IMG/VR virus record: IMGVR_UViG_3300005663_001084
Coordinates: 1-24,928 of that record
Origin: a virus
Length of the DNA: 24,928 nt
Reading direction: 5' to 3' (one strand)
Shown piece after piece: positions 5,013 through 17,327 of the stretch. Position 1 is the first letter of the stretch. Every line of letters starts with the position of its first letter. The translations under genes and the position numbers were made by a program. Below the pieces are notes generated by a model. It was not told where the DNA came from and did no database searches. It saw only the letters and a program-made list of their open reading frames with translations.

Positions 5013-5705
5013 TCAGTCCAGGCTCCACCCGTGTTTGATAACGTCCATTGTGTAGGCTGCCCCATGGGTGAACAGGCAGTCCAGGACTGACATGCGTTCT
5101 TGGAATCCAGGATATATCTGGGGGTACGAATGGCAACGAAATCTTTGAAAAACTGCTTGCAAGTTGTGCTGGCGGGCGTGGTCCGGGAGAAGCCGCTGCT
5201 TGAATGCCGAACTGCTCAGGATCACCCGGCCACCCGCCGCGCGGGCGACGTTGAGCGAGAGCGTGAGGAAATCGTCCGTATCGAGGCTCAGCACCTGGGA
5301 CGAGTGCGCGATCCGGGTCTTGATGCCCAACCAGTCCCGGATGAGCAGGATCAGCGTGTAGTTGAGATCGAAGACCGTGGCCGAGGTCTTCAGAGCTTCC
5401 CGGATCTCCGGCGCGTACTCTTTCCAGTACGCGGTCTCGCCGTATGTCCCGGCCAGAAGCATCCAGGCCATCTCGATCTCGTGGAACGGCCGGAGCCGCG
5501 CCTCGGCGACCCGCTGCTGGGCGACCTGATTGACCGGGATGACCAGCCACGTCCAGTCGGACTCGGTGCGGATACGGTTCCGGTTCTGGAAGTGGCGCTT
5601 GCGAAAGTAGGTTGTATCGGTGAGGACGAACAGATCCGCGTGCAACAATTGATTCCAGAATCCTAACCATGGGATGAACTCTGGTTGGTGGACGCCGACG
5701 ATCAC
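5013..5705 (-). CDS. WbqC-like family protein (PF08889-like) of unknown function, a family typical of polysaccharide / O-antigen loci.
   Basis: The N-terminus IVGVHQPEFIPWLGFWNQLLHADLFVLTDTTYFRKRHFQNRNRIRT...WLVIPV matches the WbqC-family signature (QP.Y.PW.GYF..I...D.FV.LDDVQ....W.NRN.I). GTG start at 5705 is preceded by GGAAGGG. Confidence 0.75.
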   Translation of the reverse strand: MIVGVHQPEFIPWLGFWNQLLHADLFVLTDTTYFRKRHFQNRNRIRTESDWTWLVIPVNQVAQQRVAEARLRPFHEIEMAWMLLAGTYGETAYWKEYAPEIREALKTSATVFDLNYTLILLIRDWLGIKTRIAHSSQVLSLDTDDFLTLSLNVARAAGGRVILSSSAFKQRLLPDHARQHNLQAVFQRFRCHSYPQIYPGFQERMSVLDCLFTHGAAYTMDVIKHGWSLD

Positions 5706-5837: not shown

Positions 5838-6224
5838 TCACGCAAAAACAGGCGCGGCCATCTCTGGACGCACCACAAGCCTCTCGATGCCAATCACTCG
5901 ACCCAAGTCGGCAGCCTTCTGGGATGCGAAGCGTGCAACGCGCTCGTTGGCTTCCCTGGCGATCTCCGCACTGAGTTGATCGATATCCAGGCCGGGGAGC
6001 GACTCGACTCCCAGCGACTGGGCAATCTGTCTCGAAAGGTGCGCGGCCGACCACACGTCCGGCGTGGGCGCAGGCAGGCCAACGTAAATCTCAGCACCTG
6101 GGGCCAGGGCTTCGGCCATGGAGAACTGACCCAGCGCATCCTCAGGGCTGTCCGCGAAGATAGGCGTCCACGGACCCTGGGCGAACTGGGAAACGAGGTA
6201 GTCTCTGTATGCTGTCCGGACCAT
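5838..6224 (-). CDS. Hypothetical protein of 128 aa.
   Basis: ATG at 6224 with AGGAG 7 nt upstream. This is an internal start of track ORF 5838..6278. A promoter and palindrome lie just upstream. Confidence 0.65.
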   Translation of the reverse strand: MVRTAYRDYLVSQFAQGPWTPIFADSPEDALGQFSMAEALAPGAEIYVGLPAPTPDVWSAAHLSRQIAQSLGVESLPGLDIDQLSAEIAREANERVARFASQKAADLGRVIGIERLVVRPEMAAPVFA

Positions 6225-6238
6225 CGGGGCACTCCTCT

Positions 6239-6260
6239 GACACACAACATATTGTGTGTC
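6239..6260. promoter_or_regulatory. Perfect 9-4-9 palindrome GACACACAA-cata-TTGTGTGTC, immediately upstream of the SD of gene 5838..6224 and downstream of its -10 box. It could be an operator or a 5'-leader hairpin.
   Basis: Read directly from the sequence. The arms are perfect reverse complements. Confidence 0.45.
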
Positions 6261-6274
6261 GTGCCTTTGATACA

Positions 6275-6303
6275 ACAATACGATGCGCGTTAGGGTATGT
6301 CAA
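6275..6303 (-). promoter_or_regulatory. Sigma70-like promoter TTGACA-N17-TATTGT driving gene 5838..6224.
   Basis: Minus-strand reading is TTGACAtaccctaacgcgcatcgTATTGT. It lies about 45 nt upstream of the ATG. Confidence 0.5.
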
Positions 6304-6334
6304 CGATGAGTTGGGGACAGCCTGTGGACAATTG

Positions 6335-6365
6335 CCCTAAGTGCATAGGGGAAGTGCACTTAGGG
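6335..6365. repeat. Perfect 11-bp inverted repeat CCCTAAGTGCA-N9-TGCACTTAGGG just downstream of the stop of gene 6382..6936. It is hairpin, terminator or operator-like.
   Basis: Read directly. Both arms are perfect. It is flanked by the A/T-rich gagaaaatttt on the plus strand. Confidence 0.45.
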
Positions 6366-6381
6366 AGGTGAGAAAATTTTG

Positions 6382-6936
6382 TCAATCTGACTCGGTATGT
6401 CGAGTTTCCGCTAAGGTCCGGATGTCGTCCCTCTCACCGGGGGATACAAAATCCAGTCCCAACTCCTCGAACAGGCTCTTCTCACAGGGAGTTACGAGCT
6501 TCACATCTTCACGCTTCAAGCCCGACGCACCGAACTTCAGACCCTTGCTGCCCGCGAAGACCTCTATCATTTTGACAAACGGGACCGGCCCGTTGGCGTG
6601 GAGCATGGCCGCGCCCAGTTGCTCGGGCGGGATCACCAACCAGGAGACGTTCCCGTCCTCGAATTCGACGTAGTCGTAGATCTTGAACTTCTTGATCTTG
6701 CAGCCAGTGAACTCAACCTCGGCCCGGGACTTGATCTGAGAACGCACGTCGCCGGAGTCGGCCGTCTCGCTGAGAACGCCTACCACGCATAGCTGCTTCA
6801 CCTGGGCCTTCTCCGGCAGGCGGTACAGTTCCCCGCACGGGAACGTCTCGATCACGCCGGTCCCCGCCATGCACGACATGATCCGTGCCGCGAGCGACTC
6901 AGCGCGCTCGCGGCTCCAAGTTGTCTTAGCCGCCAT
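6382..6936 (-). CDS. Hypothetical protein of 184 aa.
   Basis: ATG at 6936 with GGAGGA upstream. A repeat-family promoter lies 20-55 nt upstream. The track ORF 6382..7053 N-terminal extension is rejected. Confidence 0.7.
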   Translation of the reverse strand: MAAKTTWSRERAESLAARIMSCMAGTGVIETFPCGELYRLPEKAQVKQLCVVGVLSETADSGDVRSQIKSRAEVEFTGCKIKKFKIYDYVEFEDGNVSWLVIPPEQLGAAMLHANGPVPFVKMIEVFAGSKGLKFGASGLKREDVKLVTPCEKSLFEELGLDFVSPGERDDIRTLAETRHTESD

Positions 6937-6961
6937 CGGTGTATCCTCCTGTCCCACCCTG

Positions 6962-6991
6962 TATATCGGATTGGGCGGGCAATTTCCCCAA
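6962..6991 (-). promoter_or_regulatory. Repeat-family promoter, copy 1 (TTGGGG-N18-GATATACAG).
   Basis: Minus-strand reading is TTGGGGaaattgcccgCCCAATCCGATATACAGG. It shares the CCCAATCCGATA core with the seven other copies. Confidence 0.55.
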
Positions 6992-7012
6992 CTTTTCTGC
7001 GACCTTGCCGGT

Positions 7013-7042
7013 TTGACATTCGCCAAGGCGAGGAGGTATAAC
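7013..7042 (+). promoter_or_regulatory. Sigma70-like promoter TTGACA-N18-TATAAC for the plus-strand AdoMetDC-family gene. The ATG is 9 nt after the -10 box, so the leader is very short or absent.
   Basis: Read directly. The aggagg at 7031 lies inside the spacer and is too far from the ATG to serve as an SD. Confidence 0.5.
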
Positions 7043-7051
7043 GACTTGACC

Positions 7052-7441
7052 ATGGCTTACGGCATCGGACTACGTATCGAAGGGCACGACTGCGGGAACG
7101 CCGCGATCCTCCGCGACGAGGAGGCCGTCCAAGAACTGCTGGTGACCGCGATCCAGGTCGCAGACATGACCCTGCTGGCCGGGCCGTTCTGCACCGAAGA
7201 ACTGACTCGGGACATCGGCAAGGGTCCCGGCCTCACAGCCTGCGCGATCCTGTACGAGTCCCACGTTGTCATCCACACCTATCCGGAACAGCGGTGGTTC
7301 CTGTTCGAGATGACCACCTGCAAAGAGTTCGACTCGGTCCGTGTCGTCAATCTCCTGAGAGCCTGGGCCGACTGCAAGACGGTCACCGACTGCACCGTCG
7401 TGGGCCACATGTTCCCCGAACCCGTTGAAGCGAATGGCTGA
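7052..7441 (+). CDS. Pyruvoyl-dependent S-adenosylmethionine decarboxylase proenzyme family (SpeH/SpeD class 1b-like), 129 aa. The substrate could be AdoMet, arginine or ornithine.
   Basis: CAILYESHVVIHTYPE matches the AdoMetDC self-processing motif (L-x-ESH-[LV]-SIHTWPE), with the serinolysis site at Ser70. The length of ~130 aa fits the small bacterial/archaeal form. This is an internal ATG of track ORF 6869..7441. Confidence 0.85.
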   Translation: MAYGIGLRIEGHDCGNAAILRDEEAVQELLVTAIQVADMTLLAGPFCTEELTRDIGKGPGLTACAILYESHVVIHTYPEQRWFLFEMTTCKEFDSVRVVNLLRAWADCKTVTDCTVVGHMFPEPVEANG

Positions 7442-7703
7442 TCTCCGCGAAACCATGCGCCGCGTCATGTGCCCGCTCACCGAGCGTATGACACCCACAT
7501 CCGTCGTTGGGCTGGCCCGAGCACACAGGCTGGCCGTCTCGGACGCTGAGGTGGTTGTGGACGAATACGGCAAGGACAAGATCACGCTCTTCCTGACGCA
7601 GCCCACCGAAGACAAGTACATCCGGGCCTTCAAGCGCGACCTGCGTAAACGCGATCCCCAAGCCGGTCAGGTCACCGTCCGAAGCCCAGGCGCAAGAAGG
7701 TAA
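7434..7703 (+). CDS. Hypothetical protein of 89 aa, translationally coupled to the decarboxylase gene.
   Basis: The ATG at 7434 overlaps the upstream TGA as ATGGCTGA. Confidence 0.55.
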   Translation: MADLRETMRRVMCPLTERMTPTSVVGLARAHRLAVSDAEVVVDEYGKDKITLFLTQPTEDKYIRAFKRDLRKRDPQAGQVTVRSPGARR

Positions 7704-7708
7704 CCGCG

Positions 7709-9763
7709 CTACTTCGGTTTTTTGACCCTCGGGATATTCAGGTTCCCCGCGTGGTACTCCTCAGCCGCGATCAACATCGGTGCCCACTGGAGGTAGCCCG
7801 CCCGCGTGCGCGGGTCCTGAAAGAACTGCTTGTAGTCGCCGGGCTTGTACGCATCGACGTTGAACAGCCGGGACTCCGGAACGGTGACCGTGGTCCTGAG
7901 CGGGCTGTCGTCATCCCATCTGTACCGCCGAAACGACCGCCGCTCACGGAACCAGCGAAAGATGGCCTTCTTCGCCCAGGGCTGCCACTTGTCAATCTTG
8001 GCGATGTAGCCGGGACCTGGATTGCCGTACGGCTTGAAACGCTCATGCCGGTAGTCGCTCCGATTCCGCCAGTCACCGTCCAGGCGGTTGTTCTCTTTCT
8101 CCGCCTCCTTTTCCTGCCAGAGGCCGTCCTGGCCGATGACCACGCTGCCCGTCTTCAGCGATTCGTTGCACTTCCGGCGGTACGCCTCGAAGTCCGGACG
8201 CTCGCCCTCGTACAGCGTGTTGGAATCGTCGTAGACAAGTTCGAGGGCCTGCCCGAAACCTTCGGCACTCCAGAGCTTGACCGGAAGGTGCGGATGTAGA
8301 ACATCGGAGCGGTCGAACAGACCTTGGACGATCAGCGCGATCCGGTTGTAGTGCTTGACCCGGTCCTCGACTTCCTTGAGCGCCTCGTCGAAGTACACGG
8401 AGGTGGAGTTGAACGGCTCCCACTCGTTTTCCCTGAAGCTGCTATGGAAATGCGTCTCGAAGTACCCGTCGTACGGAGCCTTGTCGAGAATATCCCTCCG
8501 CTCTCTTATCTGAAATTTGTTGAGATTGTGGGAGCTTTTCCGCAACCGCTTCGGCATGTTCTCTTTGAGCCACTTCTTCCGCCCCACCAGATTCCGTTTA
8601 TGCGCAGCCTCAGCATCTGCGTGTTCCTTGCAGAGCGCCTTGAACTCACGGACCGGGATCATCTCCTCCACCTTGTCGAAGCTCATCTTCGCCATCATCG
8701 GTTCGGTCGGGTCGAAGATCTTCCCACTGGGAAACAGCATCAGCCCGAACTCCAGGTCGCACCCCATCCAGTAGACGCGCTCCCCATTTCGGATGTACAA
8801 GTAGGTTTTCTTGTCGGCGTTTTCCAACCCCATGTGGATAAATATCTTCTTCGGATCGCCGCCCCAGTCGCGCGCTTTCTTCTCCCGCCGAACTTTGAAC
8901 GACACGATGCAGCGAGGGAATGGGAAGACCCGGTTCAAGTTCTCCGGCTCGCACAGCCATTTGTCGAACTTGTCGAGGCTATCAAAATCCATCCCACCAA
9001 GCTGGTAGTTGAGCAAGCACTCCTCGTCCATGTATAGGCGGCGCTGCATCAGATACAGTTTCTCGGAGATGTCAGCAGGCTCGCCCTTCTGGATCTGTTT
9101 CACGTCTTCAGTGAGACCTGCGTAGATGCTGACGTTGAAGATCCGATCCTGAATGTCATCGACGCAGGATTTCATTGCGCCTGCCATGGCCTCAAGCGGA
9201 ACGGCCTCGGCCGACAACCACATCGCTAGGTTTTCATTGGCGCTCCTAATCTCGCTAAACAGTTTCGGAAGGTCCTCATCCTTTGCCTTGACCAGCGCAT
9301 TTTCGTACTTCTTGACGTTGTCGGTCCCGGAGAGCGTAACCAGGGCAGTGCTGGAAGACTCGCTGCGCTCTTCAATACCGATCCGGCTACTCACACCCAG
9401 CCGGGCCGTGAGGGCTTTCACTTCGGCCATCTTCTCTTCGACCAGAGCTTTGTACTTGTGGACATTCCTACCGATTACATCCTTGGGCTTGGGCTCGTGA
9501 CGCAGTTCATCGAAGAAGTCGTCGAAGTGAACCCGGCAGTGGCTCTGACCCTGGTGACCTCTCGGAGAATGAAGCTCGACGTAGTTGGACCCGATCTCTG
9601 TGATGCAACCGAGCCACTCGTACTCGTAATCTTCGTATTTGTCAGTCTCTTCGTTGTACCTACTCTTGGTGTGCTTCACCCAGTACCACTGACCGACCTC
9701 GGCACCACCTTCGGTGTCGAGGCGGTCAGTGACGGGATTGCGCTTGGCGACTTGCTTGGCCAC
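7709..9763 (-). CDS. Large hypothetical protein of 684 aa, Lys/Glu/Tyr/Trp-rich, with lower GC (~55%) than its neighbours.
   Basis: GTG start at 9763 with AAGGAAG 6 nt upstream, 1 nt after the TAG of the upstream gene. It converges on plus gene 7434..7703, with only 5 bp between the stops. Confidence 0.8.
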   Translation of the reverse strand: MAKQVAKRNPVTDRLDTEGGAEVGQWYWVKHTKSRYNEETDKYEDYEYEWLGCITEIGSNYVELHSPRGHQGQSHCRVHFDDFFDELRHEPKPKDVIGRNVHKYKALVEEKMAEVKALTARLGVSSRIGIEERSESSSTALVTLSGTDNVKKYENALVKAKDEDLPKLFSEIRSANENLAMWLSAEAVPLEAMAGAMKSCVDDIQDRIFNVSIYAGLTEDVKQIQKGEPADISEKLYLMQRRLYMDEECLLNYQLGGMDFDSLDKFDKWLCEPENLNRVFPFPRCIVSFKVRREKKARDWGGDPKKIFIHMGLENADKKTYLYIRNGERVYWMGCDLEFGLMLFPSGKIFDPTEPMMAKMSFDKVEEMIPVREFKALCKEHADAEAAHKRNLVGRKKWLKENMPKRLRKSSHNLNKFQIRERRDILDKAPYDGYFETHFHSSFRENEWEPFNSTSVYFDEALKEVEDRVKHYNRIALIVQGLFDRSDVLHPHLPVKLWSAEGFGQALELVYDDSNTLYEGERPDFEAYRRKCNESLKTGSVVIGQDGLWQEKEAEKENNRLDGDWRNRSDYRHERFKPYGNPGPGYIAKIDKWQPWAKKAIFRWFRERRSFRRYRWDDDSPLRTTVTVPESRLFNVDAYKPGDYKQFFQDPRTRAGYLQWAPMLIAAEEYHAGNLNIPRVKKPK

Positions 9764-11445: not shown

Positions 11446-12135
11446 TTATTCGCCAGGGTTTTCCGGAGCGACCACAGGGGGTTTCTCAGGCGGAGCTTCC
11501 TTGGGATCTCCCGGGCTGGTCGCGGCCCGGTACGCAAGGTAGACGCCCAGGATCGCAGCCCCGATCCCACCAAGCCAGATCGGGTTGAGGAACCATGGCA
11601 CACCCAGCTTGCTGTACTTGTCGTCAGCCTTGGGATCGCCACCGTCGCCGGTTCCCTGGGACGGGATGCCCTGGCTCTGGTGGACCGGGTCCATCGACGG
11701 ACGCCAGCCTCTCATCATCTCCTGGTTGATCGTCTCCAGGCCCTTCAGCTTCACGTGGATACGCTCGTTGCCAACGTGAAGCTGAAGGTCTTTCTCAAAC
11801 TGCTTGATCTCACCTCGGATCTCGACGAAGACCTTCTCGTGCTCCGAGTCACTCATCCGTGATCCATTTTCGATCTCGCGGTCACGCTTCTCCAGCTTTT
11901 CTTCAAGGCGGTCCATCAGATCCTGGAGACGCTGGGCGACTCCGGAGATCTTCTTATCCAGGTCCTTACTCTCACTTTCGATGCGTGCGTAGAGCTTGCC
12001 AACTTCTTCGGTTATCTTCTTGCGGACATCGCGGTCCTCTTCCTCGCGCTCTCGACGTTCCTTGTCGATAGCCTCGCGAAGAGCCCGCTCCTTCCGCTCG
12101 ATCTCGTCTCGGCGTTCTCGTTCTTGTCCGTCCAT
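11446..12135 (-). CDS. Coiled-coil protein with a C-terminal transmembrane helix, 229 aa.
   Basis: ATG at 12135 (MDGQERERRDEIERKERALRE...). The sequence is charged and heptad-like for ~170 aa, then PWFLNPIWLGGIGAAILGVYLAY. The N-terminal R-rich extension of the track ORF is rejected. It has its own consensus promoter. Confidence 0.7.
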   Translation of the reverse strand: MDGQERERRDEIERKERALREAIDKERREREEEDRDVRKKITEEVGKLYARIESESKDLDKKISGVAQRLQDLMDRLEEKLEKRDREIENGSRMSDSEHEKVFVEIRGEIKQFEKDLQLHVGNERIHVKLKGLETINQEMMRGWRPSMDPVHQSQGIPSQGTGDGGDPKADDKYSKLGVPWFLNPIWLGGIGAAILGVYLAYRAATSPGDPKEAPPEKPPVVAPENPGE

Positions 12136-12176
12136 GGTTAGTCTCGCAGGACACAGTCGTCCCCGCCTCGGATTCG

Positions 12177-12205
12177 ATTGTAAACGAGATGGAGCCGCAC
12201 GCCAA
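12177..12205 (-). promoter_or_regulatory. Sigma70-like promoter TTGGCG-N17-TACAAT for gene 11446..12135.
   Basis: Minus-strand reading is TTGGCGtgcggctccatctcgttTACAAT. Confidence 0.55.
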
Positions 12206-12214
12206 CCGAAGAGA

Positions 12215-12415
12215 TTATGTTGCGTAAGTAAGACCTTGCTTTTTACGGTCGGCGTTGATCTTGGAAATCTCTTTGTGGCGCTGCCGACCCTCGGGAGTTT
12301 CCTTCCAGGGCGTGCATCCGCCAACGCACCAGTCCGTGTCGACCGCCAGCTTGAGGCTGGCTTTGGCAAGAGCCGCACGGGCCTCGTACCCTCCGAAGAG
12401 GGTGGAGTTGAGCAT
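12215..12415 (-). CDS. Small hypothetical protein of 66 aa.
   Basis: It is the only protein-like ORF in a 280-nt gap and has GC3-rich codons. There is no clear SD. Confidence 0.4.
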   Translation of the reverse strand: MLNSTLFGGYEARAALAKASLKLAVDTDWCVGGCTPWKETPEGRQRHKEISKINADRKKQGLTYAT

Positions 12416-12487
12416 TCACGTAGGCCGCAGACACCGTAGACAGCGAAGAAAATCTTCCCACGGTAGTCTGGCGGCCTGCGAGAGCAT

Positions 12488-12712
12488 TCAGTGATCGCCG
12501 TTCGCCGAGATAGCGCCGATCTGGCTCAAGACCGTCTCGACGGTATCGGCAACGATCCGGCGGACCGCCCGAGCCTGCTTGCGCGTCAAGTCGGGCTTGC
12601 CTTTGCTCGTGGTCTCACGACGCACGGTCGCAAGCGAAATCTTCTCGATCCTGCTCTGCTGGGCATCGTCGAAGACCGGTTTCCGTCCACGCCGCTTCTT
12701 CTTTTTCCGGGC
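12488..12712 (-). CDS. Small highly basic protein of 74 aa (MARKKKKRRGRKPVFDD...), probably nucleic-acid binding.
   Basis: ATG at 12712 is preceded by GGGGGGAAAG. An alternative start exists at 12748. Confidence 0.6.
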   Translation of the reverse strand, partial: ARKKKKRRGRKPVFDDAQQSRIEKISLATVRRETTSKGKPDLTRKQARAVRRIVADTVETVLSQIGAISANGDH

Positions 12713-12728
12713 CATAGCTTTCCCCCCT

Positions 12729-12765
12729 ACAGGTTTGTGCACATCCATGTGCAGGACATACCTGT
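12729..12765. promoter_or_regulatory. Nested palindrome in the leader of the basic-protein gene. It contains a perfect 16-bp TGCACATCCATGTGCA inside ACAGGT...ACCTGT.
   Basis: Read directly. It lies between the -10 box of repeat promoter copy 3 and the SD. Confidence 0.45.
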
Positions 12766-12795
12766 ATTATCGGATTGCGGGAGCAATTCCTTTAA
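12766..12795 (-). promoter_or_regulatory. Repeat-family promoter, copy 3 (TTAAAG-N18-GATAATACAGG).
   Basis: Minus-strand reading is GGAATTGCTCCCGCAATCCGATAATACAGG. Confidence 0.5.
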
Positions 12796-12824
12796 GGAAA
12801 AATGGTGTAAAAATCCTTTTCTTG

Positions 12825-13040
12825 CTACTTTCCGCCGCAGGCCCGGGCTGCGTTGGCCACCGTGACCACCTCACGGACCTTGCGAATCGCCACGGTCTGG
12901 TCGGCGCTCTCCGGCGTGTGGTCCCGGATAATCGTGGCGAACGTCTTCCCCGCGTCCCGGATCAACTTGTAGGCGACGATGTCTTCGTCGTCCGGCGGGT
13001 GGTGGGTGAACCAGTTGTCCAGCATCTCGTCAGTGATCAC
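12825..13040 (-). CDS. Small hypothetical protein of 71 aa (…DNWFTHHPPDDEDIVAYKLIRDAGK...).
   Basis: GTG start at 13040 with GGAGGAG 7 nt upstream. It overlaps the stop of the upstream gene as GTGA. Confidence 0.6.
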   Translation of the reverse strand: MITDEMLDNWFTHHPPDDEDIVAYKLIRDAGKTFATIIRDHTPESADQTVAIRKVREVVTVANAARACGGK

Positions 13041-13663
13041 TTGATTACTCCTCCTAAAGTTTCCCAGTAGGCTCCGGGGATTCCATCCTCCGGATCGGGC
13101 CACTCCCAGTAGGCCCAAATCTTCCGCCAGTCCGGATGCGTCTGATCCATCCGCCGCTCGGCCATCTCTTTGGCCACCTCCGGACTGGTTAGGTGCACGG
13201 CGGTGCTCGACCAGACCGACTTCCCGTTCTGGTTGTCCGTGATGTCCAGGTACTCGCTGCCGTCGGGACGCTGCTTACAGTCGACCGTGTAGCGCGTCGT
13301 CAGCCGAATGGCCCAGTTCGTCGTGCCCGTCTCTTCCGGGTAGAGGACGTGACCGCGCTGCGCGCCCCGGTGGCCGAGCAAGATGCGCGCCTCGTCCTGC
13401 TTGGCTATGAACCACCAACCGAGCGGCAGTCCGATAACGTACAGTCCGCCAAACTGAGAGGGGATGCGCAGGAAACCGCACTCATCGAACGCGTCCGTAT
13501 CGTTGGTCCGATCCGTGTGCAGTTCCACCAACGGTGCGCATGTGTCGAAAGCGGCCACCCCGTCGTGTGCCTGGAACGCATAGTTAATCGCTCCCGGCGG
13601 AACGCCTGTGAACAGGGCGATCTTGGTAAGACGATCTGGCGGATTGGCCACGGCAACACTCAT
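13037..13663 (-). CDS. Hypothetical protein of 208 aa with a Trp-rich C-terminus.
   Basis: ATG at 13663 follows the upstream TGA directly as TGAATG. Composition is normal. Confidence 0.75.
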   Translation of the reverse strand: MSVAVANPPDRLTKIALFTGVPPGAINYAFQAHDGVAAFDTCAPLVELHTDRTNDTDAFDECGFLRIPSQFGGLYVIGLPLGWWFIAKQDEARILLGHRGAQRGHVLYPEETGTTNWAIRLTTRYTVDCKQRPDGSEYLDITDNQNGKSVWSSTAVHLTSPEVAKEMAERRMDQTHPDWRKIWAYWEWPDPEDGIPGAYWETLGGVIK

Positions 13664-14395
13664 TCAGTCGGCGACCCAGGGCTTCGTCGCCTTCAGGAAC
13701 GCCTCGACTTTTCCCAGGTCAAACCGGCGGTCATCATCGGACCGCACATGGGTCTCGACGTCAATCCAGATCGGACCGTCCTGGCACACGAAGGCGATCT
13801 TCTTCAGTTCTTCCTCGATGTTGTCCGGAGACAGGCCGCCTGCATAGCCACAGTAGACGCGGTTGCGCTCGACTTTGGGCCACTGGCCTGGAAGCACACC
13901 TGCGCCTCCGGACTTATCGAACAGTGGGGCCGCGTCGACGCCGTTACGCTGGGCAATGTCGAGCAAGTGGTTGTTCAGGTTGCCAAGCTGGAAGATCATC
14001 TGCGTCACGTTGACCGGGCGCAGGCGGCGCATGGACTCCATGAAGGTCGACGTGTCGATCTTCTTGATGTACGGCGAGAAGTTCAACTGGATGCGTCTGA
14101 ACACCGGCCACACGTCGACCAGCCTGGGGTCCTTGATCATCGACCAATCACCCGCGCAGATGCCCCGTACCCACTTCCCGCAAACATGGGAAGACAGGTT
14201 CAGCTTCTCCTGCTTGCCGACCAGCCCCATGAGCCACTCGGCACTGGGAAAGCGGGGCTTGCTGCCCATGCCGCTGTCCGACATCAGAATGCCCCACTCG
14301 ACGAACGGGTAGGCTTCCGAGAGTTCGATGAGGCACTTGACCTCCGTGCTGTCGTCGGCTCCCGTGATTGTGACCCGGTTCAGGATCTTCTTCAT
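13664..14395 (-). CDS. Phosphoribosylanthranilate isomerase (TrpF/PRAI)-like TIM-barrel protein, 243 aa.
   Basis: The N-terminal RVTITGADDSTEV resembles KICGIT of TrpF. The C-terminal LFDKSGGAGV...VYCGYAGGLSPDNIEEEL matches the TrpF phosphate-binding pattern (LD..GGTG...LAGGL.PENV). SD AAGGA is present, 2 nt after the Nudix stop. Confidence 0.7.
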   Translation of the reverse strand: MKKILNRVTITGADDSTEVKCLIELSEAYPFVEWGILMSDSGMGSKPRFPSAEWLMGLVGKQEKLNLSSHVCGKWVRGICAGDWSMIKDPRLVDVWPVFRRIQLNFSPYIKKIDTSTFMESMRRLRPVNVTQMIFQLGNLNNHLLDIAQRNGVDAAPLFDKSGGAGVLPGQWPKVERNRVYCGYAGGLSPDNIEEELKKIAFVCQDGPIWIDVETHVRSDDDRRFDLGKVEAFLKATKPWVAD

Positions 14396-14397
14396 GG

Positions 14398-14808
14398 TTA
14401 TCCTTTCAGAATGCCTCGATCCACCAGTTGCTGTAGGCCGTTGAAGCGCGGCGCAGGAACATCATCTCTCCAGATCCACTGCGTATGCTTCGTGGACTCC
14501 GGATTCTGCGGCAAAATCCCCAAGTACGGCTTCGACTGGAGGATCGCGCACACGAAATCGTTCTCGTAGTCGACGTAGGTCATCAACGGCCGGTCGATTT
14601 CGACCATGATACCTACCTCTTCCAGGACCTCGCGGATGCCGGTCTGCTCGATAGTCTCGGTTCCCTCGACATGACCACCGGGAAACTGCCACAAACCGTT
14701 GTACGGCTCGGCAATCCGCCTCGAAAGCAGGTGCTTCTCGGCCCTGAAGTCAACGATGCGTACCGCGACACTGACCGTTTTGCGTACGGGCGGAGGTTTC
14801 ATACTCAT
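14398..14808 (-). CDS. Nudix hydrolase, 136 aa.
   Basis: It contains a canonical Nudix box GHVEGTETIEQTGIREVLEEVGI (Gx5Ex7REUxEExGU). ATG at 14808 lies immediately after the -10 box of repeat promoter copy 4, so the mRNA is leaderless. Confidence 0.85.
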   Translation of the reverse strand: MSMKPPPVRKTVSVAVRIVDFRAEKHLLSRRIAEPYNGLWQFPGGHVEGTETIEQTGIREVLEEVGIMVEIDRPLMTYVDYENDFVCAILQSKPYLGILPQNPESTKHTQWIWRDDVPAPRFNGLQQLVDRGILKG

Positions 14809-14838
14809 TACATCGGATTGGGACGCCTAAATCGGCAG
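14809..14838 (-). promoter_or_regulatory. Repeat-family promoter, copy 4 (CTGCCG-N18-GATGTAATG).
   Basis: Minus-strand reading is CTGCCGATTTAGGCGTCCCAATCCGATGTAATGAGTATG. A second TGCCGAAAATAGCC half-copy lies about 20 nt further upstream. Confidence 0.5.
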
Positions 14839-14855
14839 GTTTTCTATGACCTGGG

Positions 14856-15134
14856 CTATTTTCGGCAGGTGCCGTCGGCCTTACGACCGTGTTTGCAACG
14901 CTTCCGGTCCTTGAACCAGCGCGGATCTGTACCGAAACCCAGTGAAAGTGACGGTGCGGAGATGGCCTTCCCGGAAGTGCCGCCGGAAGACATGCCGCCG
15001 CCGTTCCCCATGCCCCCTCCGCCGCCCATAGACCCACCAGAAGAGGCCCCGGCACCACCACCGGTACCTCCGGTACCCCCACCTGCGGCCTGTTCTCTGA
15101 GCGCCTTGTAGAGCTTTCCACGTGTAATTCGCAT
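14856..15134 (-). CDS. Small Gly-rich protein of 92 aa. A ~40-residue G/S/T/M tract is followed by a basic two-Cys tail.
   Basis: ATG at 15134 lies 6 nt after an extended -10 box (TGTTATACT), so the mRNA is leaderless. The opposite-strand Pro-rich ORF is the antisense artefact. Confidence 0.5.
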   Translation of the reverse strand: MRITRGKLYKALREQAAGGGTGGTGGGAGASSGGSMGGGGGMGNGGGMSSGGTSGKAISAPSLSLGFGTDPRWFKDRKRCKHGRKADGTCRK

Positions 15135-15137
15135 GGC

Positions 15138-15170
15138 GACAGTATAACAGAGCCAAAAATTTCAGAAAAG
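15138..15170 (-). promoter_or_regulatory. Extended -10 promoter (TGtTATACT) for the Gly-rich protein gene.
   Basis: Minus-strand reading is ctctgTTATACTgtcgccATG. Confidence 0.4.
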
Positions 15171-15255
15171 GGGTGTCCCGGAATTTGTAAGACAGCCTGA
15201 GCCAACATGTTACAGAATTTCGACGCGGATTATTTCGGAATCGCTGAAATCTTTG

Positions 15256-15274
15256 ACCTGGGAATTTCCCAGGT
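15256..15274. other. Short hairpin CCTGGG-aattt-CCCAGG inside the long intergenic region.
   Basis: Read directly. Confidence 0.3.
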
Positions 15275-15316
15275 GCCTGGACGCGCTTGAGGAGTAAGTA
15301 AAGCGATAGGGGCGAC

Positions 15317-15395
15317 AAAGACCTTATTTACCTTGTCAACTAAGTTGAATCCTGGACAGGACTTGCGCCCACGAAAAGATACGGTAAGGTCTTTA
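15317..15395. repeat. Long-range inverted repeat AAAGACCTTAtttACC / GGTAAGGTCTTT enclosing a ~50-nt loop. It could be an ncRNA, attenuator or terminator structure downstream of gene 15427..15783.
   Basis: Read directly. It sits in a ~290-bp AT-richer non-coding stretch (15135..15426). Confidence 0.35.
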
Positions 15396-15426
15396 CGCCA
15401 CTTGGGGCCTTAACTGCGCCTCTTTC

Positions 15427-15783
15427 TCAGGCCGTCTGGCGGACACGTTCGACCAGGAAGTTCAGGACGCGCAGGAAGCCCGCCATGTCGGTCCCGGCCG
15501 GGTTTGGACCCTGGGACGGCGGCAGCATCTCGCGCGCCACGTTCAGGCAGACGCGCTTCATCTCCTGAACTGCTACGCCCTGCATCTCAGCCTTCAGCGG
15601 GCCGAGCGCCTCCTCCAACGAGTCGAGGTTGACCTGGGCTTCGTCCCGATCCTGGTCCGCCCCGTAAGCGTACAAGAACAGTTGGTCAAGCAGATCCTCA
15701 CCATCGGCCATTGCCATGGTCGGCCGCTCGGCTTCGTCGAAGAACTCTTCGATGCGCTCTTTCGTTGCGTCGTCAATAGGCAT
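15427..15783 (-). CDS. Acidic hypothetical protein of 118 aa.
   Basis: ATG at 15783. It overlaps the end of the upstream gene by 11 nt. Confidence 0.7.
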   Translation of the reverse strand: MPIDDATKERIEEFFDEAERPTMAMADGEDLLDQLFLYAYGADQDRDEAQVNLDSLEEALGPLKAEMQGVAVQEMKRVCLNVAREMLPPSQGPNPAGTDMAGFLRVLNFLVERVRQTA

Positions 15784-16324
15784 TGGACTCTACACTCCCT
15801 GCCTCAGGTCGAGGCACTTTTTTGTGCATGCACAAATGAATGTCCCTGATCGCCCTTCCGCTGGTCTCGGGGTACGCCATCGGAAGGACGCGCCTAACTT
15901 CCTCCTCTAACTTTTGTTGCCCTGGCTCACTATCCACGTGGATGGCGTACTCCAACCACGTTCCGTCTTCCCATAAGACGTAGAAACGTGCAAGGGTGTA
16001 ACTCTCTTTGCCAATAGCCTGACCTGGAGGTGGGCCAAGAATCCAGGTGATCGCAGTATTATTTAACTTTGATCGCGTGCACACTCGTGTCTTTCCTTGG
16101 TGTACCGCATTCCACGTATTTGCAAGGTCAGGCAACCGCTTATGCGCGTCGTTGTACGGGTCTTCAACACCAGACTGCTTCATGTAGAACCCAAGCTCAT
16201 TAGCCGTGGGAGGTGTTCTCCCCTCATCCATGTACTTGATCAGATACCCCAAAACGCGCGTGCACAAATCCGAAAGGTTTGGCAGAAGTTTCCGGTAAGC
16301 CTCAATGCTGGTCGGTTTAACCAC
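15773..16324 (-). CDS. Hypothetical protein of 183 aa.
   Basis: GTG start at 16324 with GGGGAG 4 nt upstream. It overlaps the upstream stop as GTGGTTAA. Confidence 0.7.
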   Translation of the reverse strand: MVKPTSIEAYRKLLPNLSDLCTRVLGYLIKYMDEGRTPPTANELGFYMKQSGVEDPYNDAHKRLPDLANTWNAVHQGKTRVCTRSKLNNTAITWILGPPPGQAIGKESYTLARFYVLWEDGTWLEYAIHVDSEPGQQKLEEEVRRVLPMAYPETSGRAIRDIHLCMHKKVPRPEAGSVESNAY

Positions 16325-16889: not shown

Positions 16890-17327
16890 TTATTGGAGAT
16901 TCCACGAAACGGCCCACCCGTCGCCCGGTTTGCCTTCTCCGTCGACTTCGTGGTAGCTGGTGGCCGGAATTTCGTCGATACTCTCAAACGCGGTCGCGGA
17001 GGGCGTCCCAAAGGCCGAGACCAAGGCCCGGTACGACTTTTGAGACGTCACATCCGCTTCGACCGTCTTCACGCCCCACTCTTTCAACGACTGGGCTGCT
17101 TTTTGGGCCAGGAGCGTACCGTAGCCCCGGCCGCGATGTGCGGGCTTCACAAAAAGGTTGCCCAGGTGGGATTTCGTGTCGTCGAGAGTCTCAGTCGTCA
17201 CGTGGCCGACTTCTTCGCCCGCAAGGTAGGCGCGAAGAGTCAGACCGCCCCAGGGAGCCTTCATCACCTGGAAAGTGAGGCCCCGGGCTTCGTTGAGGAC
17301 GGTTCGGATGGCGCGTCGGGAATCCAT
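16890..17327 (-). CDS. GNAT family N-acetyltransferase, 145 aa.
   Basis: GNAT motif A is present: VKPAHRGRGYGTLLAQKA. ATG at 17327 lies 7 nt after a TATACT box, so the mRNA is leaderless. Confidence 0.85.
   Translation of the reverse strand: MDSRRAIRTVLNEARGLTFQVMKAPWGGLTLRAYLAGEEVGHVTTETLDDTKSHLGNLFVKPAHRGRGYGTLLAQKAAQSLKEWGVKTVEADVTSQKSYRALVSAFGTPSATAFESIDEIPATSYHEVDGEGKPGDGWAVSWNLQ

What the first reader, a model, noticed from the sequence alone, without database searches (positions are those of the whole stretch)
12825..14838. Nudix hydrolase / TrpF-PRAI-like TIM barrel / 208-aa / 71-aa operon behind one leaderless promoter
Four tightly coupled genes follow repeat promoter copy 4. Adjacent pairs are joined by TAAccATG, TGAATG and GTGA junctions. 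The first gene is a canonical Nudix hydrolase, which cleaves nucleoside-diphosphate-X substrates. The second is a TIM barrel with the TrpF phosphate-binding signature; TrpF performs an Amadori rearrangement of a ribosylamine phosphate. The third is a 208-aa protein with no recognisable fold. The fourth is a 71-aa protein. PRAI-like enzymes are not normal phage cargo. Paired with a Nudix enzyme, this suggests stepwise processing of a ribosyl-nucleotide. The substrate could be ADP-ribose, an NAD-derived signal, a nucleotide second messenger or a modified-nucleotide precursor. The same genome carries the Asp-less nucleoside-hydrolase domain and an AdoMetDC-family enzyme. Candidate roles are anti-defence degradation or re-routing of immune signalling nucleotides, or a DNA/RNA hypermodification route.
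Basis: partly seen in the sequence, partly recalled or inferred. Interest (0 to 1): 0.75.

Follow-up and report, generated by a model that had tools for sequence, protein, structure and literature searches.

The report
Phage accessory cassette with Acb2 sponge
Four tightly packed phage genes behind one repeated promoter are real, but they look like a lineage-specific mix of independent accessory genes rather than a conserved ribosyl-nucleotide pathway: a small MutT-like Nudix enzyme, an uncharacterised TrpF-related barrel enzyme, an orphan protein, and an Acb2-family "sponge" of the kind that soaks up bacterial immune signals.

Summary
Four co-directional minus-strand genes (134/136, 243, 208 and 71 aa) are joined by TAAccATG, TGAATG and GTGA junctions. 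They lie between two copies of an 8-copy promoter-like repeat.

Gene 1 has a canonical Nudix box. Its nearest relatives are MutT/NudG-type enzymes, and it lacks ADP-ribose-pyrophosphatase hallmarks.

Gene 3 has only a handful of detectable relatives and no known fold. Its "VHLTS" histidine is not conserved, so it is not a 2H phosphoesterase.

It passes Pfam PF24729 and is 49% identical to Acb2_27. A 2025 preprint table scores Acb2_27 positive against type I Thoeris and one CBASS system.

None of the other three genes accompanies the barrel gene in about 120 other loci. The stepwise-pathway idea is therefore unsupported. The anti-defence setting is supported, but through the sponge. Interest is moderate.

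The parts
14802..14849 (-). Copy 4 of an 8-copy promoter-like repeat. On the minus strand it reads ...CTGCCG-N18-GATGTAAT-GAGT-ATG. It is probably a leaderless promoter for the cassette.
   Evidence: the repeat finder family D1/D2. Alignment of the 8 copies shows an ATG 6-7 nt after the -10-like hexamer in 5 copies. Promoter function is inferred; the consensus scan was negative.
14398..14808 (-). Small Nudix hydrolase, 136 aa as the ORF, more likely 134 aa from the ATG at 14802. It is MutT/NudG-like and has a canonical Nudix box, G45-x5-E51-x7-R59-E60-V-L-E63-E64-V-G66-I.
   Evidence: Pfam PF00293 2e-14 and phrog_1198 2.5e-16. NCBIfam best hits are PRK08999, MutT and NudG, all below the equivalog cut-offs. 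PDB best hits are MutT 3hhj, AtNUDT1, NUDT18/15 and NudG. PADLOC PDC-S07 5.6e-15.
13664..14395 (-). 243-aa (beta/alpha)8 barrel of a large uncharacterised family remotely related to TrpF/PRAI. The phosphate-binding C-terminal half and the Asp160 acid are kept. Thr11 replaces the TrpF catalytic Cys.
13037..13663 (-). 208-aa protein from a very small family. It has no known fold and no conserved catalytic-looking residues.
12825..13040 (-). 71-aa Acb2-family sponge homologue. It starts at a GTG that overlaps the stop of the 208-aa gene.
   Evidence: Pfam PF24729 Acb2_Tad1_hairpin 8.6e-9, 35.9 bits against a cut-off of 27. phrog_1454 1.2e-12. All 15 homologues carry PF24729. 49% identity, E 2e-18, to the tested Acb2_27. 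hhalign to Acb2_43 (PDB 9ptq) E 2.9e-4.
12759..12806 (-). Copy 3 of the promoter-like repeat. It marks the downstream boundary of the cassette and the start of the next unit, an 86-aa gene at 12488-12748.

Best explanation
The region is one probably leaderless transcription unit in the accessory-gene region of an uncultured phage from marine sediment. Its four genes are independent modules that happen to be neighbours in this lineage.

(1) The 71-aa product is an Acb2-family sponge. By analogy with characterised members it would assemble into an oligomer that binds and sequesters a nucleotide immune signal. Candidate signals are a CBASS cyclic dinucleotide and/or the Thoeris signal 3'cADPR. 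Sequestration would block the host effector. Family membership is shown here. The oligomeric state, the ligand and the effect on a host are all inferred.

(2) The Nudix enzyme is a minimal MutT/NudG-like pyrophosphohydrolase. Its most likely substrates are (d)NTPs or another small NDP-X compound. The substrate is not shown.

(3) The 243-aa protein is a stand-alone enzyme of a large, unnamed, PRAI-related barrel family. It probably binds a phosphorylated sugar or ribosyl compound through the conserved TrpF-like phosphate site. It probably performs a reaction other than canonical PRA isomerisation, because the catalytic Cys is replaced by Thr. This is inference.

(4) The 208-aa protein has very few relatives and no enzymatic signature. 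It may be a binding or inhibitor protein.

The cassette as a whole most likely serves host takeover or counter-defence. It is not a conserved multi-step pathway.
For: - The cassette is bounded by two promoter-repeat copies and its genes are tightly coupled.
- Acb2 membership: PF24729 above the gathering score. All 15 homologues carry the same domain. The protein is 49% identical to Acb2_27. Close relatives with the same sequence motifs are listed among Acb2 homologues in Table S1 of bioRxiv 10.1101/2025.08.24.671296. Table S2 of that preprint scores Acb2_27 positive in plaque assays against type I Thoeris and Y. aleksiciae CBASS.
- Independence of the modules: tblastn with the Nudix, 208-aa and 71-aa proteins found nothing in 40 viral or context loci or in 80 genome loci that encode the barrel. 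A Nudix-box regular expression matched 1 of 813 and 0 of 1,057 neighbouring ORFs. An Acb2 HMM found nothing in 7,730 ORFs. Homologues of the 71-aa gene sit in unrelated contexts.
- Barrel classification.
- Nudix type.
- 208-aa protein.
Against: - Tight translational coupling, including an overlapping stop/start, would also suit proteins that act together.
- Anti-defence genes tend to cluster, so the neighbours of a sponge could share its target pathway.
- In one lineage of large phages the barrel gene lies near Tpt1, WGR-PARP, ADP-ribosylglycohydrolase and RNA ligase genes. This gives weak support to an NAD/ADP-ribose or RNA-repair link for the barrel.
- No biochemical data exist for any of the four proteins.
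- The Thr11-for-Cys7 equivalence rests on a low-confidence part of the alignment plus the RVTITG/RVKICG motif match.
Confidence: 0.6

Rival explanations
1. The Nudix enzyme, the PRAI-like barrel and the 208-aa protein form a stepwise pathway. The pathway degrades or re-routes a ribosyl-nucleotide such as ADPR, a cADPR isomer, an NAD-derived signal or a second messenger. It complements the sponge in defeating Thoeris- or CBASS-type or NAD-depleting immunity.
For: - The genes are co-transcribed and translationally coupled.
- They are adjacent to an Acb2-family sponge whose tested relative Acb2_27 is scored positive against type I Thoeris, which signals with 3'cADPR.
- The barrel keeps a TrpF-like ribose-phosphate site.
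- In one large-phage lineage the barrel gene lies close to PARP, ARH and Tpt1 genes.
- Iyer et al. 2022 (PMC9503650) propose that phage Nudix domains counter ADPr-derived signals.
Against: - No co-occurrence of Nudix, 208-aa or Acb2 genes with the barrel in about 120 other loci.
- The Nudix is MutT/NudG-like. It is only 134 aa and has no Pro at +15/16 after the box (direct reading). It is not in the T4 NudE or NadM clades that dominate phage ADPr-linked Nudix proteins, since only 5 weak phage hits were found.
- The 208-aa protein has no catalytic signature, and its VHLTS motif is not conserved.
- The PARP/ARH association is confined to one related lineage.
Confidence: 0.12
2. The barrel works in RNA or tRNA repair, or in translation-related host takeover. 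[quoted passage not shown] The Nudix would be an RNA 5'-end or NAD-cap pyrophosphohydrolase.
For: Within 2 genes of the barrel in viral loci there are TyrRS (4 loci) and single cases of Tpt1, Thg1, HAD_SAK_2 and RlaP. RlaP lies directly downstream in L012/L134, and an RNA ligase is nearby in L133. In gut alphaproteobacterial MAGs the gene sits beside an RlmN-like gene, and a MiaB-like gene lies within about 6 kb.
Against: Each association is limited to one lineage. The four TyrRS loci are related, and L012 and L134 are the same locus. No background model was applied. Most neighbours have no annotation. Nothing RNA-related was found in the genes scanned near the cassette in this window.
Confidence: 0.1
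3. This is a nucleotide-pool or DNA-hypermodification module. The Nudix sanitises or converts (d)NTPs, and the barrel makes or modifies a phosphoribosyl precursor for modified bases.
For: The Nudix has a MutT/NudG-like sequence profile. The genome also carries AdoMetDC-like, WbqC-like and acetyltransferase genes. In Microcystis phage Mwe-JY13 the barrel lies near PAPS-reductase-like and ParB/Srx-like genes.
Against: No known modification enzyme, such as a glycosyltransferase, DpdA, a TS-like hydroxymethylase or PurZ, was seen next to the barrel. There is no conserved partner across loci.
Confidence: 0.08
4. The 243-aa protein is a genuine phosphoribosylanthranilate isomerase, that is, an auxiliary tryptophan-biosynthesis gene.
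Against: The catalytic Cys position holds an invariant Thr. The NCBIfam TrpF equivalog score is 17.7 against a cut-off of 215. The family profile finds no TrpF chain in the PDB. Identity to TrpF structures is 15-16%. The 25 most frequent Pfam families among 141 neighbouring proteins include no tryptophan-pathway family. The family also has its own extra invariant residues: H70, C72, R101, Q103, N105, Q136, E214 and R218.
Confidence: 0.03

Closest known systems
Acb2 anti-CBASS/anti-Thoeris sponge family (Pfam PF24729; PaMx33 Acb2, T4 Vs.4, Acb2_43 PDB 9ptq, Acb2_27)
   Same: The size is similar, at 71 aa. The Pfam hairpin domain scores above the cut-off. The protein is 49% identical to the tested homologue Acb2_27. 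It aligns without gaps to Acb2_43, and His14 and Arg28 fall on the 3'cADPR-contacting residues H5 and K19 (bioRxiv 10.1101/2025.08.24.671296).
   Different: The ligand is unknown. Acb2_43 K55 aligns with Ala64. The oligomeric state was not tested. Relatives with the same FT(Y/H)HxP motif differ in which systems they inhibit: #4 inhibits cGAMP CBASS only, #17 inhibits none, and #27 inhibits type I Thoeris and cUA CBASS.
Phosphoribosylanthranilate isomerase TrpF (PF00697; e.g. T. maritima 1LBM/1NSJ)
   Different: Thr replaces the catalytic Cys7. The beta8 SSG phosphate loop is replaced by E-T-H..R. There are extra invariant residues: H70, C72, R101, Q103, N105 and Q136. The protein is about 40 residues longer. 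Identity is only 15-16%. There is no trp-operon context. The family is carried by phages and found in scattered bacterial MAGs.
MutT/NudG-type minimal Nudix NTP pyrophosphohydrolases (and the MutT-ThiE fusion family PRK08999)
   Same: It has a canonical Nudix box and the upstream GLWQFPGG motif. The best NCBIfam and PDB hits are MutT, NudG, NUDT15/18 and AtNUDT1. The size is about 134 aa.
   Different: All scores are far below the equivalog cut-offs and identity is about 25-33%. The substrate is not assignable. It is phage-encoded, and only 5 weak homologues exist among 50,697 phage records.
Phage anti-defence gene clusters (islands where sponge, anti-CRISPR or NAD-restoring genes sit together)
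   Same: An accessory-gene cassette behind its own promoter-like repeat contains a known sponge-family gene next to small enzymes of unknown role.
   Different: Only one of the four genes belongs to a known anti-defence family. The neighbours are not found next to sponge genes elsewhere.

Membership tests
Nudix hydrolase superfamily | Nudix box GX5EX7REUXEEXGU and the Nudix fold domain | tested here: met
   G45-HVEGT-E51-TIEQTGI-R59-E60-V-L-E63-E64-V-G66-I67, read from the translation. PF00293 2.2e-14.
ADP-ribose pyrophosphatase subgroup of Nudix | Pro about 15-16 residues after the box, and an extra N-terminal or dimerisation domain giving about 170-210 aa (from the literature on Nudix specificity motifs; own knowledge) | tested here: not met
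   Residues +15/+16 are E82/N83, and the protein is 134-136 aa. NudF/NudE family models score E 0.01-0.03 and lie far below their cut-offs.
MutT / NudG equivalogs | NCBIfam equivalog score above the curated cut-off | tested here: not met
   MutT scores 42 bits against 148, NudG 35.6 against 156, and PRK08999 54.5 against 245. It resembles this group but cannot be filed as an equivalog.
PRAI / TrpF (PF00697) | (beta/alpha)8 barrel and the Pfam gathering score | tested here: met
PRAI / TrpF (PF00697) | Catalytic general base Cys at the end of beta1 (Cys7 in T. maritima TrpF) | tested here: not met
   RVTITG aligns with RVKICG, so Thr11, which is invariant in 50 sequences, occupies the Cys position. 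This stretch of the alignment has low confidence.
PRAI / TrpF (PF00697) | General acid Asp after beta6 and the beta7 GG phosphate site | tested here: met
   D160 aligns with D126, and YAGGLSPxN aligns with LSGGLNPEN. Both are invariant in the family.
PRAI / TrpF (PF00697) | TrpF equivalog score and a trp-operon context | tested here: not met
   NF002298 scores 17.7 bits against 215. The 25 most frequent Pfam families among 141 neighbouring proteins include no tryptophan-pathway family, and none was found among the neighbours examined in genome loci.
Acb2 sponge family (PF24729) | Acb2/Tad1 hairpin domain above the Pfam cut-off and similarity to experimentally tested members | tested here: met
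   35.9 bits against 27. 49% identity, E 2e-18, to Acb2_27. hhalign E 2.9e-4 to Acb2_43. Close relatives with the same motifs are listed as Acb2 homologues in Table S1 of the preprint.
Acb2 sponge family (PF24729) | Hexameric assembly that binds cyclic oligonucleotides or 3'cADPR without cleaving them | not testable with these tools
H5 and K19 of Acb2_43 align with the invariant H14 and R28. K55 aligns with A64.
2H phosphoesterase (proposed for the 208-aa protein) | Two conserved H-x-T/S-x motifs and the 2H fold | tested here: not met
Macro domain (proposed for the 208-aa protein) | Macro fold | tested here: not met

The most novel reading that the evidence does not exclude
The PRAI-related barrel family has about 1,590 detectable members, occurs in phages of 18 kb to over 500 kb, has no PHROG match and was not found in the literature searched. 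On this reading it is a new class of phage enzyme that isomerises or cleaves a ribosyl-phosphate immune metabolite, such as ADPR, a cADPR isomer, ADPR-1''-phosphate or a related TIR or Tpt1 product. In this phage it would be deployed together with a Nudix enzyme and an Acb2 sponge as a layered counter to NAD-derived immune signalling.
Probability: 0.1. Interest if true: 0.85.

Novelty: new variant of a known kind. Interest (0 to 1): 0.45.

Why it matters
The 71-aa gene adds a marine-sediment phage to the Acb2 sponge family. It places that sponge in a compact cassette with two enzymes and a protein that has almost no relatives. Neighbours of sponge genes are reasonable candidates for new counter-defence functions.

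The larger point is the 243-aa protein. It represents a large, well-conserved, TrpF-derived barrel family that is spread across phages, including huge phages, and across some bacterial MAGs. The family has no assigned function. Its active site keeps the ribose-phosphate grip of TrpF but not the catalytic cysteine. Working out its substrate would annotate more than a thousand genes. It could also reveal a new piece of phage nucleotide or NAD-related metabolism.

Tried and rejected
- DNA similarity of window 12000-16000 to 50,697 phage records: no match.
- phmmer of the 243-aa and 97-aa proteins against PDB sequences: no hits.
- The A1 family profile against PDB sequences: only chance hits.
- 2H-phosphoesterase or macro fold for the 208-aa protein: rejected. 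The exhaustive search for it also matched short stretches of two giant repeat proteins, P0125 and P0126. I did not follow these up.
- A conserved partner for the barrel gene. I clustered neighbours in 40 viral or context loci and 80 genome loci and ran Pfam on 141 neighbours plus selected representatives. I found only lineage-limited partners: TyrRS, PARP/ARH, RlaP, DUF5131, and housekeeping genes in gut Alphaproteobacteria.
- Nudix-box regular expression and Acb2 HMM searches in those loci: essentially nothing.
- Microdiversity of the sponge gene between two assemblies: the DNA is 100% identical, and only the start calls differ.
- Literature searches for a phage TrpF-like enzyme or a phage Nudix acting on Thoeris signals: nothing specific.
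- The Burroughs and Aravind 2016 RNA-repair survey could not be retrieved.
- Rfam and tRNA scans of the window: empty.
- GC content of the cassette matches the genome, so there is no sign of recent acquisition.
Full report
**Observation**

The region holds four minus-strand ORFs:
- 14398-14808, 136 aa
- 13664-14395, 243 aa
- 13037-13663, 208 aa
- 12825-13040, 71 aa from a GTG start

The ORF lister extends the last one to a 97-aa TTG start. Fifteen homologues all begin at the position of the GTG, so 71 aa is the better call. The junctions are exactly as described: TAAccATG, TGAATG and an overlapping GTGA.

A roughly 45-nt element occurs eight times in the window, always in the same orientation and just upstream of minus-strand genes. 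On the minus strand its consensus is TTGsCG-N18-GATAAY-AYAGGT-ATG. Copy 4 (14802-14849) precedes the Nudix gene. Copy 3 (12759-12806) follows the stop of the 71-aa gene, so the four genes form one bounded unit.

In five of the eight copies an ATG sits 6-7 nt after the -10-like hexamer, which is the geometry of a leaderless transcript. In copy 4 that ATG is the second Met codon (14802). The Nudix protein is therefore probably 134 aa, and two other assemblies call it that way. A simple sigma-70 consensus scan found nothing, so promoter function is an inference.

The window is part of a 46-kb contig from a marine-sediment metagenome, project PRJNA259156. NCBI names the 208-aa protein LCGC14_0163060, marine sediment metagenome. 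The contig has no DNA-level relative among 50,697 phage records. Most of the surrounding genes that I scanned have no family assignment. GC content across the cassette, 0.56-0.65, matches the window value of 0.60.

**Gene 1, Nudix**

The Nudix box is canonical: G45-x5-E51-x7-R59-E60-V-L-E63-E64-V-G66-I. Pfam gives PF00293 at 2e-14, and PHROGs gives phrog_1198, MutT/NUDIX, at 2.5e-16.

The best curated-family hits are the MutT-ThiE fusion family PRK08999, then MutT and NudG. All lie far below the equivalog cut-offs. The best solved relatives are MutT (3hhj), plant NUDT1, NUDT18/15 and NudG.

The protein is too short for the usual ADP-ribose pyrophosphatase architecture. It also lacks the Pro at +15/16 after the box; that motif rule comes from my own knowledge of the Nudix literature. 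Only five phage records hold a relative, at 33% identity or less. It is therefore not in the T4 NudE or NadM clades that Iyer et al. 2022 (PMC9503650) describe as the main phage Nudix groups.

The substrate cannot be assigned. On sequence, an NTP-type pyrophosphohydrolase is the default.

**Gene 2, the barrel**

- Pfam reports only PRAI: 26.3 bits against a cut-off of 22.7, covering residues 144-234.
- The AlphaFold model built on 50 homologues is a confident eight-stranded beta/alpha barrel, pLDDT 93.
- Foldseek against the PDB gave only weak, mixed TIM-barrel matches.
- hhalign of the family alignment against T. maritima TrpF gives P 2e-4. I checked the typed TrpF sequence against PDB entry 1LBM.

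The hhalign alignment pairs these motifs:
- QLNFH with QLNAVQLHG
- LFDxSGGxG with LLD...GGSG, which puts Asp160 on the general acid Asp126
- YAGGLSPxN with LSGGLNPEN
- IWIDVETxVR with FAVDVSSGVE

A more permissive alignment extends to RVTITG against RVKICG. That places an invariant Thr11 where TrpF has its catalytic Cys7, and perhaps Arg48 on Arg36. This N-terminal stretch has low confidence.

The family has its own set of invariant residues: T9, T11, E33, R48, H70, C72, R101, Q103, N105, Q136, D160, S162, Y184, D212, E214 and R218. The protein is therefore a TrpF-derived barrel that keeps the ribose-phosphate half. It has lost the canonical base and has a remodelled substrate half.

The inference of Amadori chemistry on a ribosylamine is not established.

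**Distribution and context of the barrel family**

The indexed search returned 1,590 proteins with E at or below 0.001, mostly 230-260 aa, on contigs up to 584 kb. The family appears in:
- 36 IMG/VR viral contigs of 18-527 kb
- two 735-kb and one 635-kb uncultured huge-phage records, and Microcystis phage Mwe-JY13
- 129 places in species-representative genomes

All 80 genome loci that were returned are MAGs or other uncultured-organism assemblies. Many are from gut Alphaproteobacteria, where the gene is chromosomal and sometimes occurs as tandem paralogues. There it lies among LptFG/LptD, RlmN, MutY, BacA, XseA and FtsY genes. Other loci come from Thermoguttaceae and CPR MAGs.

PHROGs has no match for the 243-aa protein. 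I found no paper on the family.

I then tested whether the cassette is a conserved unit.
- tblastn with the Nudix, 208-aa and 71-aa proteins found nothing in the 40 viral or context loci or in the 80 genome loci.
- A Nudix-box regular expression matched 1 of 813 and 0 of 1,057 neighbouring ORFs.
- An Acb2 HMM found nothing in 7,730 ORFs.
- Clustering of neighbours and Pfam scans gave only lineage-limited partners.

The lineage-limited partners are:
- TyrRS in four related loci
- WGR-PARP in three loci, with ADP-ribosylglycohydrolase in two of them and Tpt1 in one, all from related large phages
- an RNA ligase in L133
- RlaP directly downstream in one locus
- single Thg1 and HAD_SAK_2 cases
- DUF5131 in several loci

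There is a faint NAD/ADP-ribose and RNA-repair flavour. No partner is conserved, and I applied no statistical background.

**Gene 3, the 208-aa protein**

No family library matches it. The indexed search found only the protein itself and an 81-82% identical relative. An exhaustive HMMER search of 1.84 billion representatives found ten hits. Six are proteins of similar size at 23-38% identity, and two are giant repeat proteins matched over short stretches.

Only G63, P80, W83, R124, Y185 and W186 are invariant. The histidine of VHLTS is already Gln in the closest homologue.

**Gene 4, the 71-aa protein**

- It matches Pfam PF24729, the Acb2/Tad1 hairpin domain, at 8.6e-9 and 35.9 bits against a cut-off of 27. 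It also matches phrog_1454.
- All 15 database homologues carry the same domain.
- A profile of the family finds Acb2 homolog 43 (PDB 9ptq) as its only biologically sensible PDB hit, though weakly at E 0.46. Pairwise hhalign gives E 2.9e-4 over 57 ungapped columns.

The preprint bioRxiv 10.1101/2025.08.24.671296 shows that Acb2_43 forms a hexamer, binds the Thoeris signal 3'cADPR and inhibits type I Thoeris. The contacts come from T4, H5, K19 and K55. In my alignment H5 and K19 fall on the invariant H14 and R28 of the present family, and K55 falls on Ala64.

Table S1 of the preprint lists close relatives of the 71-aa protein, with the same sequence motifs, among its 4,204 Acb2 homologues. One tested member, Acb2_27, is 49% identical to it, E 2e-18. 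In Table S2, Acb2_27 is scored positive in plaque assays against type I Thoeris and against the Y. aleksiciae (cUA) CBASS. It is scored negative against type IV Thoeris and the E. albertii (cGAMP) CBASS. It showed no phenotype in the liquid-culture screen against type II Thoeris or either Pycsar system. I checked the column meaning against the Methods and against the Acb2_43 row.

Other tested relatives with the same N-terminal FT(Y/H)HxP motif have different or no activities. The ligand of this protein therefore cannot be read from sequence.

Homologues occur in many actinobacteriophages and in Bacillus, Brevibacillus and cyanophage genomes. They also occur in metagenomic phages in unrelated contexts, such as next to a portal gene or near a primase.

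**Synthesis**

What is shown:
- a bounded, tightly coupled four-gene unit behind a repeated promoter-like element
- a canonical small Nudix enzyme
- a TrpF-related barrel of a large uncharacterised family that lacks the TrpF cysteine
- a protein with almost no relatives and no known fold
- an Acb2-family sponge homologue

What is inferred:
- the unit is an accessory, host-takeover or counter-defence cassette
- the sponge sequesters a CBASS and/or Thoeris signal
- the barrel binds a phosphorylated ribosyl or sugar compound

What is not supported is that the genes form a conserved stepwise pathway. The four genes travel independently.

The Nudix looks like a MutT-type enzyme. The barrel is PRAI-like rather than ThiE- or PcrB-like, but it lacks the PRAI base.

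**Verdict**

The cassette is a lineage-specific variant of a known kind of phage accessory or anti-defence gene cluster. Its most interesting component is the unnamed barrel family. Interest is 0.45.

The most novel reading still open is that the barrel is a new enzyme acting on NAD-derived ribosyl immune metabolites alongside the Nudix and the sponge. I give that reading about 10% probability. It would be highly interesting if true.

Noticed in passing
window, + strand starts 6955, 11408, 12759, 14802, 16850, 19423, 20262, 21332: There are eight copies of a roughly 45-nt promoter-like element with an invariant CAATCCGAT core on the minus strand. Five copies place an ATG 6-7 nt after a GATAAT-like hexamer, which looks leaderless. 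The other three are followed by a leader, and the copy at 6955 shows an AGGAGG-like sequence there. The invariant core just upstream of the -10 could be a binding site for a phage-specific factor.
   Followed up: partly
window 14809-15427 (minus strand ORF 14856-15134): A 620-nt stretch upstream of the cassette has no called gene in any assembly. It contains a 92-aa ORF that is extremely Gly-rich (GGGTGGTGGGAGASSGG...) and has a basic, Cys-containing C-terminus. There is also an AT-rich dip, GC 0.47, at 15100-15399. No Rfam match was found.
   Followed up: no
L094, L105, L113 (gut alphaproteobacterial MAGs), about 6000-9100: The PRAI-related barrel gene occurs as two or three tandem paralogues in a chromosomal row of LptF/G - LptD - unknown - RlmN-like - barrel - barrel. 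One downstream paralogue that I scanned (L105) has no Pfam hit at all.
   Followed up: partly
L007 7043-15970; L133 4469-11090; L017 7616-12608: In one lineage of large phages, the barrel gene has one or more of these within about 9 kb: Tpt1, an RNA-polymerase alpha-CTD-like protein, an RNA ligase, a WGR-PARP and an ADP-ribosylglycohydrolase. One of these contigs is binned as a Thorarchaeota MAG. This is an NAD/ADP-ribose and RNA-repair neighbourhood.
   Followed up: partly
window 7046-7441 (+), 5013-5648 (-), 16890-17327 (-): The same phage encodes an AdoMet-decarboxylase-family protein on the opposite strand, a WbqC-like protein and a GNAT acetyltransferase. These come from precomputed Pfam hits on the identical contig L001, converted to window coordinates.
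   Followed up: no
P0125 (2896 aa) and P0126 (2529 aa): Two giant proteins match short stretches of the 208-aa protein (best stretches about residues 130-197) 17 and 24 times. This suggests that the C-terminal part of the 208-aa protein resembles a repeat unit used in very large proteins.
   Followed up: no
NCBIfam hit NF006530 (PRK08999) for window 14398-14808: The best curated match of the Nudix is a family in which a MutT-like Nudix domain is fused to a ThiE/TenI-like TIM barrel; that description of the family is from my own knowledge. It is a known precedent for a Nudix paired with a phosphate-binding barrel, and it parallels the Nudix-barrel adjacency seen here.
   Followed up: no
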